Shown in pieces: positions 20,226-24,980 of a DNA stretch of 26,894 nt. The notes under the pieces were generated by a model, which did no database searches, was not told the DNA's origin, and saw only the letters and a program-made list of their open reading frames with translations. The stretch is from an uncultured bacterium (GTDB lineage: Bacteria; UBA4055): NCBI GenBank assembly GCA_937873545.1, contig CALMWI010000155.1:1-26894 (forward strand), written 5' to 3'. Each line of letters starts with the position of its first letter. The stretch's first letter is position 1. A program made the position numbers and the translations under genes.

Positions 20226-20468
20226 ATGGATAAAGATAAATTGGCTGTACTTGCAGTGAGTGAAAGCGGGTTCATTTTTGATCCTGTAACCGGCCATTCA
20301 TATACCGCAAATGCTACGGGACTAAAGATCCTTGAACTGCTTAAAGCAGGAAAAGAGCCTGATGAGATCAGGTCGGTTCTTCTTGACGAGTATGACTCGA
20401 CAGAAGACGAAGTCAGCGTGGATGTTAATGATTTTATTGAAAATCTCAAAAAATATTTCTTAATATAG
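20226..20468 (+). CDS. Stand-alone PqqD-family / RiPP recognition element (RRE) protein
   Basis: 80 aa. Three short strands (AVSESG, FIFDP.TG, SYTAN), then N.TG..IL.LL..G....I...L..EY......V..DV..FI..L....LI, the PqqD winged-helix pattern. Confidence 0.85.
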   Translation: MDKDKLAVLAVSESGFIFDPVTGHSYTANATGLKILELLKAGKEPDEIRSVLLDEYDSTEDEVSVDVNDFIENLKKYFLI

Positions 20469-20477
20469 GGGATTTTT

Positions 20478-21530
20478 ATGAAGCTCACCGTAGCGGTAAG
20501 CGGGATAAACACTATTGATAATCCGGGTCCCGGCGCCGGGATATGCCGGGCTTTAAAAGAAAGCGGGATGGATGTAAGGACCATAGGTCTTGCCTATGAC
20601 GCGCTTGAACCGGGAATATATTTAGACCATATAATCGATAAAAGCTATATCATGCCTTATCCTTCAGGAAGCCGTGAAGCATTTATCGAAAGAATCAAAG
20701 ACATTCATTCAAGAGAGAGTATCGATGTTATAATTTCCGCGCTTGATGCCGAACTTCCGATCTATATGGATATCGAGCCTGTTCTGAAAGATATCGGAAT
20801 TAAGATGCTGATACCTTCAAAGGAAATGTTCAGGCTTAGAGATAAGCTCAGACTCAAGGAACTGGCTGAAAAGATCGGAGTTAAAGCTCCGGAGTACATG
20901 AGCTGCACATCTCTGGCAGATCTTCATAACGCGGTGAACGAATTGGGGTTCCCGTGCATGGTGAAAGGGCCATTCTATGAAGCGTACAAAGCTAATTCAC
21001 CGGGCGAGGCGGAAGGATATTTCGGAAAGATCGCAGCAGCCTGGGGTTATCCGATCATCGTGCAGAAATTCATTCAGGGTGACGAGTACGATGTGATAGG
21101 GTGCGGAGACGGCAACGGTAACGATATAGGAGTCTTCGCCATCAGAAAAATGACGATCACCAAGCTCGGTAAAGTATGGAACGCCGTCAGCATCAGGAAC
21201 GAAAAGCTTATCGAAGCTACAAAAAGGGTAGTAAAAGGGCTTTCGTGGCGCGGCGGATTTGAGTTCGAAGTGCTTCTTGAGGACAAGACCCAGGAAATAT
21301 ATGTACTTGAAATAAATCCGAGGTTTCCTGCATGGGTGTATTTTCCGGCAGGCTGCGGAATAAATCTGCCTGCGCGAATGGTTCAGCTTCTTACCGGGCA
21401 GGACTACGACACGCATTCCGATTATAAGAGCGGCAAGCTGATGATAAGATACACCAATGAACTTGTAAAAGATATATCCGACTTCGAACAGATCAGCACA
21501 TTCGGGGAGACATCGGAAAAAGGAGAATAG
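20478..21530 (+). CDS. ATP-grasp carboxylate-amine ligase (single-domain, CarB-like)
   Basis: Pre-grasp domain, DKLRLKELAEKIGV..P, GFPCMVKG, IIVQKFIQGDEY, GGFEFE and VLEINPRF (metal-binding E-x-N). Confidence 0.9.
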   Translation: MKLTVAVSGINTIDNPGPGAGICRALKESGMDVRTIGLAYDALEPGIYLDHIIDKSYIMPYPSGSREAFIERIKDIHSRESIDVIISALDAELPIYMDIEPVLKDIGIKMLIPSKEMFRLRDKLRLKELAEKIGVKAPEYMSCTSLADLHNAVNELGFPCMVKGPFYEAYKANSPGEAEGYFGKIAAAWGYPIIVQKFIQGDEYDVIGCGDGNGNDIGVFAIRKMTITKLGKVWNAVSIRNEKLIEATKRVVKGLSWRGGFEFEVLLEDKTQEIYVLEINPRFPAWVYFPAGCGINLPARMVQLLTGQDYDTHSDYKSGKLMIRYTNELVKDISDFEQISTFGETSEKGE

Positions 21531-21533
21531 AGA

Positions 21534-22886
21534 ATGAAAAAAGAATACATAAAACCGTATATCAGAAAACAGACCGCCGGAGTGATGAACAAATTCGGCG
21601 TAAGTTACAATAAAGGTCACAGGGAAGAGATCGAAGGTTTTCATATCGGTGATTTTACCGAAAAATTCGGATCGCCCGTATTTGTTTTAAGCGAAAAAGT
21701 AATAAGGGAAAGATACAGAAAGATCTATTCATATTTTTCCAGCAAATATCCGAAGGCAAAAATGAGCTGGTCGTATAAAACGAATTACCTCGATGCCGTA
21801 TGTTCCGTGCTTCATCAGGAGGGCGAGACGGCGGAAGTGGTTTCAGACTTTGAATATCAGAAAGCGAGAAGGCTGGGCGTACCGGGCAAGAAGATCATTT
21901 ATAACGGACCTTACAAACCGCTTGAATCGCTTATTGTAGCATTTAAAGAAGGCGCGATGGTCAATCTCGATAATTTCGACGAGATTATCAAAGCGGAAGA
22001 GGCGGCGAAAAAACTCGATATTAAAGCATCTGTCGGCATCAGGGTCAACATGGACACGGGTGTTTATCCGCAGTGGTCGAGATTCGGATTCAATATCGAG
22101 AACAACAACGCATTCAACGCGGTGAAAAGGATCCAGCACAGCGAATATCTGCATCTTGAAGGTATCCATTGTCATATCGGGACTTTCATGATGGAGCCTA
22201 GCGCCTATAAAGAAGCGGTTAAGAAAATTGTTCAGCTGATGCGCAGGATCGAGAAAGAATTTGAAATATCAATTTCGTACCTGGATTTTGGCGGCGGTTT
22301 TCCGTCAAAGAACATACTTAAAGGAACCTATCTGCCGCCTGAAGTAGCCATACAGCCGGTGGAAAATTTTATTGACGCGATCACAGACACTCTTTTAGAA
22401 GAGCTTGAACCGAAAGAATATCCCGAAGTTTATCTTGAAACAGGCAGGGCGATCGTTGACGAGGCCGGGTGGCTTATAACCACCGTTGATGCCGTAAAAA
22501 GACTTCCCGACGGAACGAAAAGTTATATAATCGACGCCGGCGTAAACCTGTTATACACATCAGCCTGGTACAATTATCATGTCGAGATAGACAGAGAAAT
22601 TCACGGAGCTTATGAGAACAGCATTATTTACGGGCCTTTATGCATGAACATCGATGTAGTGGTCGAAAGCGCGTTCTTACCGCCTCTTCCTAAAGGAACG
22701 AGGCTGATACTTTCCCCGATGGGCGCATATAATATGACCCAGTGGATGCAGTTCATCCGCTACCGTCCGGCCGTAGTTATGATATTGGAGGACGGTACTG
22801 TCGAGCAGATAAGAAGGCCTGAAACATTACAGGATATAGTCGGACCGGAAAGCGTTCCGGAGAAATTAAAGAGATTTCAATTTTAA
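21534..22886 (+). CDS. PLP-dependent fold-type III decarboxylase (LysA/DAPDC-like) with an N-terminal extension
   Basis: FGSPVFV, SYKTN (PLP lysine), EVVS..E, YNGP.K, SRFG, HCHIGT, LDFGGGF, ETGRAIV, YGPLCMNIDV and GAYN. About 30 extra residues precede the barrel. SD AGGAG 8 nt before the ATG. lysA is not assigned because the context suggests a different substrate. Confidence 0.88.
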   Translation: MKKEYIKPYIRKQTAGVMNKFGVSYNKGHREEIEGFHIGDFTEKFGSPVFVLSEKVIRERYRKIYSYFSSKYPKAKMSWSYKTNYLDAVCSVLHQEGETAEVVSDFEYQKARRLGVPGKKIIYNGPYKPLESLIVAFKEGAMVNLDNFDEIIKAEEAAKKLDIKASVGIRVNMDTGVYPQWSRFGFNIENNNAFNAVKRIQHSEYLHLEGIHCHIGTFMMEPSAYKEAVKKIVQLMRRIEKEFEISISYLDFGGGFPSKNILKGTYLPPEVAIQPVENFIDAITDTLLEELEPKEYPEVYLETGRAIVDEAGWLITTVDAVKRLPDGTKSYIIDAGVNLLYTSAWYNYHVEIDREIHGAYENSIIYGPLCMNIDVVVESAFLPPLPKGTRLILSPMGAYNMTQWMQFIRYRPAVVMILEDGTVEQIRRPETLQDIVGPESVPEKLKRFQF

Positions 22887-22898
22887 GGATAAAAGCGC

Positions 22899-24980
22899 AT
22901 GAGTTCAGGCAGGGTAAAAGAATATTATAAAGACACGACAGAAGAATTGTTTTTCGCTTACTCGAATCTTTTCTTTATTCAGAACAGGACCGTCGGAGTA
23001 CTTCTGTTCCTCTCAACGCTGTTCAACCGAAACATCGCCGTTCTCGGGCTGCTTTCTCTCATTATCGCATTGCTCTTCGCAAGGTTCATCGGAGTTAAAA
23101 GAAATGATCCGGTAAATAAACTATTTACCTACAATGCCCTTCTTACCGGATTTGCCGTCGGATTCATTTTTAAGATCACCACGCTCTCGATTCTGCTAAC
23201 TTTAGGCATGAGCATTCTGACAGTCCTGATCACTTATACATTAAGTTCAGCCCTGTATTTATATTTCAGGCTGCCCGTTTTGAACATACCGTTCACAATA
23301 TCGGCCATGATAATATATCTAGCATCGGCTAAGTACAGCAATCTTATTGTTGATTCATTCTACAAACAGGAATATTTCAATATTGAAGCACTGCCGGCTT
23401 TTATTCAGGGACTTTTCCGGGCTGTCGGAATACTGATATTCATGCCTTATGATATTATCGGCATTATTCTGCTGATAGCGATCCTGCTTTATTCACGGAT
23501 CACCTTTTTTACGGCTGTCCTGTCCTATTACGCGGGAATATATTTCCTAGCTGTATTAAAAGGCAGCGTTCCTCTCGCGTTCCAGGAAGTATCATCATTC
23601 AACTTCATACTGGTGGGAGTGAGTCTCGGCGGAATGTTTCTAATCCCTTCAAAAAGAACATACCTGCTCACATTATCAGCCGTTCTCGCGTCGGTTTTTA
23701 TAATAGACGCCACATCGGTCTTCTGGGTCTCGTTCGGAATACCGGTGTTCACACTGCCGTTCAACCTTACGGTTCTGTTATACATTTATGTACTCGGCAG
23801 CGTCAAATATGTGATGATGAATCAGACCCATCTCGAACAGCCTGAAAAATCGCTTATCGATCATCTCAACTATAAAAACAGGTTCGACTGGTCAACGCCT
23901 TCGATAAACCTTCCTTTTATGGGAAAATGGACCGTATATCAGCCTTTTGACGGCGAATGGACGCACAAAGGCGTATGGAAATATGCTTATGATTTCACGA
24001 TAGAAGATAAAGGAAAAACATTCAAGAACGAAGGACAGCAGAAAGAAGATTATTTCTGCTACGGAAAGCCGGTTGTGTCGCCCGTTGACGGGACTGTAGT
24101 TGATGTTTACGACGAAGCTGATGACAACGATATCGGTACGGTTGATAAAGTGAATAACTGGGGGAATTATATTATAATTTACTTTAACCCCGGGTATTAT
24201 GTTGAATTGTCGCATCTTAAAAAAGGTTCGATCAAGGTTAAAAAGAACGATCAGGTATCAAAAGGGCAATTGCTTTCAGAATGCGGAAATTCAGGTTATT
24301 CGCCAGAACCCCACCTTCATGTTCAGCTGCAGTATTCCCATCTGATAGGATCGGCGGGAATAGAGTTTGCGTTCAACAGCTTCAAAGCGAACGATCTTGA
24401 TCTTGATATTAAATATCTTAAAAAGAATGATTCCGTTACAGCTCTGTCATCATCAAAAACACTCACAAGAAAACTCCAGTTCATTCTTGATGAAGAGTTC
24501 ATATATAAAGTTTTCAATGATGATATTCAGACCGGCGAAATTGCGGTTACCGTGAAGATGGAAACCGACGGCACATATTATTTCTGCGACGGGAAAGAAA
24601 ATAAGCTTTATTTCGGGAACGACAGGGACAGGTTCGTGTATTTTAAATATGACGGGATCTATAATTCCGAGCTCAGATATTTCTTTCTGGCTCTGCCGTC
24701 CGTTCCTCTGTCAGATGACGAACTGATAGAATGGAATGAATTCATTCCCGATAATGTTTTCAGGATATCAAAGCTCCCTCTTATAATAAAATCCTTCAAT
24801 CACAAATTGAACAAGATCTGCGGATTCTATATCAGGAATGATAAAAATACCGTAGCCGGCAAAATAATTCAGAACGGCCGCGTGGCTGCCCAGACCAAAG
24901 CTGTCATTTGCGATAATAAGGGAATTAAAGAGATTTCATTGATTTTCAACAAAAAAACAATCAGATTAGAGAAAATATGA
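22899..24980 (+). CDS. Urea-transporter (UT)-fold membrane protein fused to an M23 metallopeptidase and an unknown C-terminal domain
   Basis: Residues 1-300: two inverted 5-TM repeats with UT signatures YNALL/FNFIL and LPVLNIPF/IPVFTLPF. Residues about 335-480: M23 fold (H356...D365, PVVSPVDGTVV, GNYIII, ELSHLKKGSI.VK..D.V.KGQ....GNSG.S..PHLH with H472/H474). About 190-aa beta-rich tail. Confidence 0.85.
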   Translation: MSSGRVKEYYKDTTEELFFAYSNLFFIQNRTVGVLLFLSTLFNRNIAVLGLLSLIIALLFARFIGVKRNDPVNKLFTYNALLTGFAVGFIFKITTLSILLTLGMSILTVLITYTLSSALYLYFRLPVLNIPFTISAMIIYLASAKYSNLIVDSFYKQEYFNIEALPAFIQGLFRAVGILIFMPYDIIGIILLIAILLYSRITFFTAVLSYYAGIYFLAVLKGSVPLAFQEVSSFNFILVGVSLGGMFLIPSKRTYLLTLSAVLASVFIIDATSVFWVSFGIPVFTLPFNLTVLLYIYVLGSVKYVMMNQTHLEQPEKSLIDHLNYKNRFDWSTPSINLPFMGKWTVYQPFDGEWTHKGVWKYAYDFTIEDKGKTFKNEGQQKEDYFCYGKPVVSPVDGTVVDVYDEADDNDIGTVDKVNNWGNYIIIYFNPGYYVELSHLKKGSIKVKKNDQVSKGQLLSECGNSGYSPEPHLHVQLQYSHLIGSAGIEFAFNSFKANDLDLDIKYLKKNDSVTALSSSKTLTRKLQFILDEEFIYKVFNDDIQTGEIAVTVKMETDGTYYFCDGKENKLYFGNDRDRFVYFKYDGIYNSELRYFFLALPSVPLSDDELIEWNEFIPDNVFRISKLPLIIKSFNHKLNKICGFYIRNDKNTVAGKIIQNGRVAAQTKAVICDNKGIKEISLIFNKKTIRLEKI

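What the first reader, a model, noticed from the sequence alone, without database searches (positions are those of the whole stretch)
21534..21626. Leader-peptide mimic on an enzyme: the decarboxylase starts with a lasso-type YxxPx(L/I) RRE-binding motif
Seen: about 30 residues precede the usual start of the LysA fold (MKKEYIKPYIRKQTAGVMNKFGVSYNKGHRE), with a good SD supporting Met1. Established: lasso-peptide leaders bind stand-alone RREs through YxxP(x)L (from memory, the paeninodin precursor begins MKKQYSKPSL) and end in T-x before a small first core residue. Here Y5-x-x-P8-x-I10 is followed by T14-A15-G16, although the Y-to-T spacing is shorter than in lasso leaders. Inference: this explains the missing precursor. 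The RRE may clamp the decarboxylase tail to recruit it to the ATP-grasp enzyme as a metabolon adaptor. Alternatively the tail is itself the modified or cleaved substrate, i.e. a precursor-enzyme fusion.
Basis: partly seen in the sequence, partly recalled or inferred. Interest (0 to 1): 0.85.

Follow-up and report, generated by a model that had tools for sequence, protein, structure and literature searches.

The report
Leader-like docking tail on a decarboxylase
The first 30 residues of this decarboxylase form a floppy, strictly conserved tail carrying the short motif that lasso-peptide leaders use to bind their PqqD-type helper, so the helper two genes upstream probably grips the enzyme itself; binding was not shown.

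Summary
Residues 1-31 (21534-21626) precede the LysA/FslC fold and carry Y5-x-x-P8-x-I10. One such match means little: 0.8% of this genome's long ORFs have it by chance. The conservation is what matters. [Y/W]xxPx(hydrophobic) sits 41-44 residues before the catalytic core in 118/119, 111/112 and 78/79 homologues from many phyla. It persists in subfamilies where the rest of the tail has changed completely.

AlphaFold2 leaves the tail disordered. The neighbouring 80-aa PqqD protein is closest to discrete lasso RREs (TbiB1, TfuB1). It keeps the Asn and Asp that contact the Pro kink and Tyr in LppB. No conserved precursor ORF flanks the cassette.

Tail and PqqD travel together:
- 70/72 loci are linked, and the two orphans have PqqD elsewhere in the genome.
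- All five distant tail-bearing subfamilies with usable contigs have PqqD.
- Four tail-less relatives lack PqqD.
- One exception has PqqD but no motif.

I favour docking over the tail being a substrate, because some subfamilies have no lysine in the tail. Binding is inferred only: an AlphaFold2 run on a read-through fusion did not dock the tail. This scan has reached the same reading on other genomes, and I found no paper describing it.

The parts
21534..21626 (+). N-terminal tail of the decarboxylase (residues 1-31), predicted disordered
   Evidence: pLDDT is 42-59 with no secondary structure. No solved homologue aligns to it. It is conserved in 120 homologues.
21546..21563 (+). Y5-I-K-P8-Y-I10: the [Y/W]xxPx(hydrophobic) leader-type motif
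   Evidence: Y5 and P8 are invariant. The motif lies 41-44 residues before the GSP core in 118/119, 111/112 and 78/79 sequences. It matches the motif read by discrete lasso RREs and LppB (PMC13381572).
21588..21599 (+). N19-K20-F21-G22: second conserved element, specific to this subfamily
   Evidence: At least 90% conserved in the window's subfamily. It is replaced by unrelated sequence in other tail-bearing subfamilies.
21520..21525 (+). Shine-Dalgarno AAGGAG, 8 nt before the ATG at 21534
   Evidence: Read directly from the sequence.
20226..20468 (+). PqqD-like stand-alone RRE (80 aa), the proposed receptor of the tail
   Evidence: PF05402 E 9e-12. A profile of cassette PqqDs hits TbiB1 at 9e-13 and TfuB1 at 1e-10. 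N29 and D66 align with LppB N33 and D70. It is the only PqqD in the genome.
20478..21530 (+). ATP-grasp ligase (350 aa; ATPgrasp_Ter / PylC-like N-terminal domain)
   Evidence: It sits immediately upstream of the decarboxylase in 70/72 loci.
21534..22886 (+). Fold-type III PLP decarboxylase (450 aa), FslC/LysA-like but below both family cut-offs
   Evidence: FslC 222.6 bits against a cut-off of 500; LysA 209.5 against 297.9. Best solved match is 7kh2, E 1e-60.
22899..24980 (+). Urea-transporter-like membrane domain fused to an M23 peptidase (693 aa)
   Evidence: UT E 7e-51 and M23 E 2e-13. It follows the decarboxylase in most of the 81 loci examined (window included); the HMM search found it in 72.

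Best explanation
The decarboxylase carries a built-in, disordered 'leader' at its N-terminus. Its [Y/W]xxPx(hydrophobic) motif is the ligand of the cassette's stand-alone lasso-B1-type RRE (the PqqD-like protein).

Shown:
- The motif is essentially invariant at a fixed distance from the catalytic core.
- The tail is not part of the fold.
- The RRE is lasso-like and keeps the Asn and Asp that contact YxxP in solved complexes.
- The tail and the RRE co-occur across cassette types and phyla.
- No separate precursor gene is linked.

Inferred:
- The RRE clamps the tail by beta-strand addition, as it would a leader peptide.
- Because RREs also bind their partner enzyme, and the RRE gene is coupled to the ATP-grasp gene, this tethers the decarboxylase dimer to the ligase. 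The ligase product, probably an amino acid joined through its side chain as in the FslA/FslC pair, would then pass straight to decarboxylation.
- The product would next reach the channel-bound hydrolase (M23 here, SIR2 in a sister cassette).

The subfamily-specific residues after the motif (N-K-F-G here) would make contacts specific to the cognate partner.
For: - Conservation: Y5 and P8 are invariant in 47 sequences. The motif is present in 118/119, 111/112 and 78/79 sequences, 41-44 residues before the core. It persists at 36-45% identity where the rest of the tail has diverged.
- Disorder: tail pLDDT is 42-59, all coil.
- RRE type: the best solved matches are the lasso RREs TbiB1 (9e-13), TfuB1 (1e-10) and PbaB1 (2e-5), ahead of PqqD proper (8e-4).
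- Contact residues: N29 and D66 are at least 90% conserved. They align with LppB N33 and D70, which bind the Pro kink and the Tyr hydroxyl. Both are also kept in the variant cassettes.
- Y-to-W swaps occur in the tails, as in lasso leaders.
- No conserved small ORF lies within 800 nt of the cassette, and the genome has only one PqqD.
- Linkage: 70/72 loci with enough upstream sequence have PqqD and the ATP-grasp gene upstream. The two orphans have PqqD elsewhere in the genome.
- Distant subfamilies: tail-bearing P0146, P0133, P0145, P0307 and P0294 all sit beside PqqD. Tail-less P0129, P0132, P0138 and P0139 do not.
- Within the phylum: both genes are present in 12 genomes and both absent in 2 good genomes. 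The 2 mismatches fall at contig ends.
Against: - No binding evidence. In an AlphaFold2 model of the PqqD~ATP-grasp~decarboxylase read-through, PqqD folded well (pLDDT about 90) but the tail stayed at pLDDT 26-31, coil. That test was weak: single-chain weights, a shallow unpaired alignment and some misaligned rows.
- The motif is short. Other conserved [YWF]xxP matches exist inside the folded parts of the ATP-grasp, the UT-M23 protein and the decarboxylase itself.
- P0144 sits beside PqqD but has no canonical motif.
- Tyr-to-Trp tails do not go with a clean change at D66: it becomes E in 2 of 6 loci.
- In a natural ATP-grasp-decarboxylase fusion the motif is still kept. A pure tethering role would be redundant there.
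- An earlier check in this scan is reported to have found the motif on many such enzymes 'outside' the system. I did not reproduce that.
Confidence: 0.55

Rival explanations
1. The tail is itself the substrate or scaffold, making this a precursor-enzyme fusion. The RRE presents the tail to the ATP-grasp, which acylates a tail residue (K20 in this subfamily). The decarboxylase trims the tethered amino acid, and the channel-fused hydrolase (M23, or SIR2 in the sister cassette) releases the product for export.
For: - A lysine 15 residues after the Tyr is nearly universal in the window's subfamily, followed by Gly at +17. From memory, +17 is also the usual Tyr-to-core distance in lasso precursors.
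- The ATP-grasp has a PylC-like N-terminal domain. From established knowledge, PylC forms an amide bond to the lysine epsilon-amine.
- The closest decarboxylases act on tethered or conjugated amino acids: FslC and BtrK.
- The hydrolase slot is filled by SIR2, a family of lysine deacylases, in the sister cassette.
- The motif is retained in a natural ligase-decarboxylase fusion, where tethering is not needed.
Against: - Whole tail-bearing, PqqD-linked subfamilies have no lysine in the tail, for example P0307 with its UT-SIR2 partner and the fusion P0130.
- Apart from the docking motif, no acceptor residue is conserved across subfamilies.
- Stoichiometric self-modification of an enzyme is an expensive way to make a small molecule.
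Confidence: 0.15
2. The tail is an intrinsic element of the decarboxylase, and its likeness to a leader is coincidental. It could be an oligomer contact, an active-site lid, or a docking peptide for the UT-M23/SIR2 membrane partner or the ATP-grasp directly. The RRE would then bind something else, such as an unlinked peptide or another protein.
For: - The motif is only three defined positions, and conserved look-alikes exist in folded regions.
- AlphaFold2 did not dock the tail on PqqD.
- The fixed 41-44-residue spacing to the core would also fit an intramolecular or intradimer role.
- P0144 has PqqD without the motif.
Against: - The monomer model gives the tail low confidence and no packing.
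- Tail-less relatives at similar identity are complete enzymes without PqqD. The tail is therefore not needed for the fold and appears only with PqqD.
- The RRE keeps the exact residues that contact YxxP.
- There is no linked peptide gene.
Confidence: 0.25
3. It is a chance match with no functional meaning.
For: About 0.8% of long ORFs in this genome carry the pattern near their start.
Against: The motif is invariant at a fixed position in more than 300 sequences from many phyla, while the flanking tail residues diverge.
Confidence: 0.01

Closest known systems
Discrete lasso-peptide RREs with their leaders (TbiB1-TbiA 5v1v, TfuB1/FusB1-FusA 6jx3, PbaB1-PbaA 9x90) and LppB-LppA of linear polyphosphorylated peptides (9x8z; PMC13381572)
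   Same: A stand-alone PqqD-fold protein of about 80 aa. The ligand motif is [Y/W]xxPx(L/V/I/F/A) in a disordered N-terminal peptide. The RRE's Asn (beta3) and Asp (alpha3) contact residues are conserved. Y/W alternation is seen.
   Different: The 'leader' is the N-terminus of a 450-aa PLP enzyme, not a small precursor. There is no B2 protease or lasso cyclase, and the partner enzymes are an ATP-grasp ligase and a decarboxylase. The Gly after the motif lies at +5/+6 rather than +3 (the lasso spacing is from memory). Binding is not demonstrated.
Borosins (OphMA-type): a core peptide fused to its own modifying enzyme (from established knowledge)
   Same: A recognition or substrate peptide is part of a full-size enzyme, so no separate precursor gene exists.
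   Different: In borosins the fused segment is a C-terminal core that the enzyme methylates, with no RRE involved. Here the segment is an N-terminal leader-like motif and there is no evidence that it is modified.
FslA/FslC (rhizoferrin) and BtrI/BtrJ/BtrK (butirosin side chain)
   Same: A ligase is followed by a fold-III PLP decarboxylase acting on a conjugated or tethered amino acid. FslC (7kh2) is the best solved match, and BtrK also matches.
   Different: Scores fall below the FslC and LysA family cut-offs. There is no NIS synthetase and no ACP. A PqqD-type RRE and a urea-channel-hydrolase fusion are present instead.

Membership tests
Lasso-type RRE / leader recognition pair | Stand-alone PqqD-fold (wHTH) RRE | tested here: met
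   PF05402 E 9e-12. Profile hits to TbiB1 at 9e-13 and TfuB1 at 1e-10. The model shows three strands and three helices at pLDDT about 90.
Lasso-type RRE / leader recognition pair | [Y/W]xxPx(L/V/I/F/A) motif in a disordered peptide segment | tested here: met
   Y5-x-x-P8-x-I10. Invariant in homologues. The tail is disordered.
Lasso-type RRE / leader recognition pair | RRE residues that contact the motif (LppB N33 and D70 equivalents) | tested here: met
   N29 and D66 are at least 90% conserved. They map by alignment to 9x8z and to the paper's residue numbers.
Lasso-type RRE / leader recognition pair | Physical binding of the motif to the RRE by beta-strand addition | tested here: inconclusive
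   The AlphaFold2 read-through fusion left the tail at pLDDT 26-31, coil. The test was weak (shallow, unpaired alignment). No multimer tool or experiment was available.
Lasso peptide biosynthetic cluster | B2 leader protease and C lasso cyclase beside the RRE, plus a small precursor | tested here: not met
   The cassette holds an ATP-grasp, a PLP decarboxylase and UT-M23. No conserved small ORF is present. This is not a lasso cluster.
Diaminopimelate decarboxylase LysA (TIGR01048) | Score above the equivalog cut-off | tested here: not met
   209.5 bits against a cut-off of 297.9. Separate weaker fold-III fragments lie elsewhere in the genome.
FslC N-citrylornithine decarboxylase (NF041039) | Score above the cut-off, with an NIS synthetase partner | tested here: not met
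   222.6 bits against a cut-off of 500. The neighbour is an ATP-grasp, not an FslA-type synthetase.
Precursor-enzyme fusion (borosin-like logic) | The fused peptide is covalently modified | not testable with these tools
   Needs mass spectrometry. Lysine-free tails in sister subfamilies argue against a universal acceptor.

The most novel reading that the evidence does not exclude
The enzyme's own tail is a built-in carrier peptide. The RRE delivers it to the ATP-grasp, which builds an amide-linked unit on it. The decarboxylase processes the unit in cis or across the dimer. The channel-fused hydrolase (M23 or SIR2) then cleaves it off for export through the urea-type pore. This would be a self-scaffolded small-molecule pathway with no separate precursor or carrier protein.
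Probability: 0.13. Interest if true: 0.9.

Novelty: new variant of a known kind. Interest (0 to 1): 0.7.

Why it matters
RREs are used as the universal flag for peptide natural-product clusters. If an RRE here reads a motif built into a full-size enzyme, 'precursor-less' RRE clusters need not hide a missed peptide gene. Leader-RRE recognition would then also serve as a general protein-assembly device.

It also gives a concrete, cheap entry point (one peptide, one 80-aa protein) into a four-gene cassette of unknown product. That cassette is conserved in the same order in hundreds of species from Aquificota to Cyanobacteria and Planctomycetota.

Tried and rejected
- **Complex modelling.** No multimer tool was available, so I read the three adjacent genes through as one chain with X at the joins. 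Most attempts to build its alignment misplaced rows: the PqqD rows in A2 and A4, the ATP-grasp rows in A2 and A6, and the start of the tail in A6 and A7. A5 was the best compromise. The model did not dock the tail, which I count as inconclusive.
- **Y/W covariation.** I looked for a matching change in the RRE. All 6 Trp-type loci lack Asp at position 69, but they come from only 2-3 lineages, and the residue equivalent to LppB D70 is D66, which changes in only 2 of them. I rejected this as evidence.
- **Hidden precursor.** Clustering of small ORFs within 800 nt on either side of 70 cassettes found only trivial matches between close relatives.
- **Lysine acceptor as the universal function.** Rejected, because several PqqD-linked subfamilies have lysine-free tails.
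- **Literature.** Four searches combining PqqD/RRE, ATP-grasp, decarboxylase, urea transporter, M23 and SIR2 found no description of the cassette.
- **Housekeeping LysA.** Rejected: the score is below the cut-off, and the genome holds separate, weaker fold-III decarboxylase fragments elsewhere.

Full report
**What is there.** On the + strand the window holds four tightly packed genes:
- a PqqD-like protein (20226-20468, 80 aa);
- an ATP-grasp ligase (20478-21530);
- a fold-type III PLP decarboxylase (21534-22886, 450 aa);
- a urea-transporter-like membrane domain fused to an M23 peptidase (22899-24980).

The decarboxylase starts at an ATG 8 nt after AAGGAG. Alignments to solved LysA, FslC and BtrK structures begin at residues 25-47. 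An AlphaFold2 model built on 47 homologues (mean pLDDT 84.6) has its first strand at residue 29. Residues 1-28 are coil at pLDDT 42-59. The extension is real and is not part of the fold.

**Is the motif more than chance?** Taken alone, no. In this genome 16 of 1894 ORFs of at least 150 aa (0.8%) have [YW]xxPx[LIVMFA] in their first 16 residues. Conserved look-alikes also exist inside folded parts of the ATP-grasp, the UT-M23 protein and the decarboxylase itself.

The conservation is what counts:
- Among 120 homologues of 57-99% identity from Delongbacteria, Cloacimonadota, Desulfobacterota, Aquificota, Thermodesulfobacteriota and Thermotogota, the tail reads roughly Y-x-K-P-x-I-x-K-x3-G-x-M-N-K-F-G.
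- Y5 and P8 are invariant in a 47-sequence alignment.
- In 80 genome loci from many more phyla, including Cyanobacteria, Planctomycetota, Verrucomicrobiota, Myxococcota, Gemmatimonadota, Campylobacterota and Francisella, the aromatic-x-x-Pro-x-hydrophobic core is kept while N-K-F-G is sometimes lost. Tyr is replaced by Trp in six loci.
- The motif lies 41-44 residues before the GSP core in 118/119, 111/112 and 78/79 sequences of three independent sets.
- It persists in other subfamilies at 36-50% identity whose tails are otherwise unrelated.

**The receptor candidate.** A profile of the cassette's PqqD proteins finds the solved discrete lasso RREs first: TbiB1 at 9e-13, TfuB1 at 1e-10 and PbaB1 at 2e-5. 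These rank ahead of PqqD itself (8e-4) and LppB (1e-3).

PMC13381572 states that discrete lasso RREs and LppB read [Y/W]xxPx[L/V/I/F/A]. It also states that LppB N33 holds the backbone kink at the Pro and D70 hydrogen-bonds the Tyr. By the alignment to 9x8z these correspond to N29 and D66 of the window's protein. Both are at least 90% conserved in 37 cassette RREs and are kept in the variant cassettes. The genome has no other PqqD.

**No separate precursor.** I clustered all small ORFs within 800 nt upstream of pqqD and downstream of the UT gene in about 70 loci. Only trivial matches between near-identical genomes appeared. An unlinked precursor cannot be excluded.

**Do the tail and the RRE travel together?**
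- Of 72 loci with at least 1.5 kb upstream, 70 have pqqD and the ATP-grasp gene directly upstream in the same order.
- The two orphans (Aquificota L019, Hydrogenimonas L061) have a cassette-type PqqD elsewhere in the genome, at E 8e-35 and 6e-29.
- In the window's phylum (16 genomes) both genes are present in 12 and both absent in two genomes of 94-95% completeness. The two mismatches are partial hits at contig ends.
- Distant tail-bearing decarboxylases were P0146, P0133, P0145, P0307 and P0294. All lie in cassettes with PqqD and an ATPgrasp_Ter ligase. P0137's contig is cut inside the ligase.
- Tail-less relatives of similar identity (P0129, P0132, P0138, P0139) have no PqqD or ATP-grasp nearby.
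- One exception runs the other way: P0144 sits beside PqqD but has no canonical motif.

**Docking or substrate?** In the window's subfamily a lysine 15 residues after the Tyr (K20) is nearly universal, which invites an acceptor model. The sister cassette points the same way. It has PqqD, an ATP-grasp, sometimes a TPR protein, an unassigned protein of about 340 aa, the decarboxylase and a UT domain. It carries SIR2 (E 2e-40), fused or adjacent, in place of M23.

Against this, whole PqqD-linked subfamilies have tails with no lysine at all. P0307 is one, even though its partner is a UT-SIR2 fusion. The only element common to all tails is the docking motif at a fixed distance from the core. I therefore rank docking or assembly above self-modification.

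A natural ATP-grasp-decarboxylase fusion (P0130) is seen on seven contigs. It keeps YxxPxI in the linker and has no lysine in the tail. So the motif does something even when the two enzymes are already joined. That fits positioning by the RRE better than simple recruitment and leaves the mechanism open.

**The direct test I could run failed to support binding.** No multimer predictor was available. I modelled the PqqD~ATP-grasp~decarboxylase read-through (882 aa, X at the joins) with a shallow, unpaired alignment (A5). PqqD folded at pLDDT about 90, but the tail stayed at pLDDT 26-31 as coil. Overall pTM was 0.52 and parts of both enzymes were poor. I count this as inconclusive rather than negative, but it is not support.

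**Comparison with what is known.** The system works like lasso/LPP leader-RRE recognition, but it is not a lasso cluster: there is no B2 protease, no cyclase and no small precursor. The decarboxylase is closest to FslC (7kh2, E 1e-60) yet scores below the FslC and LysA cut-offs. From established knowledge, borosins are the nearest precedent for a peptide element built into its own pathway enzyme. Four literature searches found no description of the cassette or of an RRE reading an enzyme's terminus.

**Earlier notes of this scan.** The scan has met this cassette on at least a dozen other genomes, and several follow-up agents reached the same 'leader on the enzyme' reading. Those are AI notes, not independent evidence. 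One reported check found the motif on many such enzymes 'outside' the system. In my data both apparent outsiders had PqqD elsewhere in the genome.

**Verdict.** My confidence is 0.55 that the tail is the RRE's ligand. I put 0.15 on the tail being a substrate and 0.25 on a role unrelated to the RRE. It is a new variant of a known recognition system, sitting in a widespread uncharacterised cassette.

Noticed in passing
L087:2255-7922, L096:1247-9265, L097:3519-9260, L093:1-5006: A sister cassette: PqqD, ATP-grasp, sometimes a TPR protein, an unassigned protein of about 340-350 aa, a tail-bearing decarboxylase and a UT domain. SIR2 (E 2e-40) is fused or adjacent where the window has M23. In P0145 and P0144 the ligase is a 710-715 aa double ATP-grasp, so the unassigned protein may be a second, divergent ligase.
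   Followed up: partly
P0130 / P0392 (871 aa, 7 contigs): A natural ATP-grasp-decarboxylase fusion. The leader-like motif lies in the inter-domain linker, directly after the retained Met of the decarboxylase. One contig has the same region split into two genes (368 + 522 aa).
   Followed up: partly
P0144 (JGI 3300056388 contig, no DNA available): A decarboxylase beside PqqD and a 710-aa ATP-grasp whose N-terminus lacks [YW]xxP but has a T-K-Y-S-G element. This is an exception to the tail/RRE rule.
   Followed up: no
L084:1498-1749 (G001) and L099 (G017): In an Aquificota genome and a Hydrogenimonas genome the cassette is scattered. PqqD stands alone between hisF and a sigma-54 activator in the first. 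In the second the decarboxylase follows a glyA-like ORF end.
   Followed up: partly
window 24977-26389 and 26299-26892: A 470-aa protein with no Pfam match and a TPR-like protein follow the cassette. Direct homologues of the 470-aa protein were found in only 3 of the 81 loci examined (window included). The 491-aa protein at the same position in L087 has a weak Alginate_exp hit (E 1e-3), hinting at an outer-membrane barrel.
   Followed up: partly
L005:188-920 and L005:2562-3849: A Thermovibrio contig carries a second pqqD plus a partial ATP-grasp copy about 2.4 kb upstream of the cassette. This could be a duplication or an assembly artefact.
   Followed up: no
G000:C504:183-761 and G000:C355:161-469: The only other fold-III decarboxylase signal in this 90%-complete genome is two short fragments of 28% identity on tiny contigs, presumably the broken-up housekeeping lysA.
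   Followed up: no
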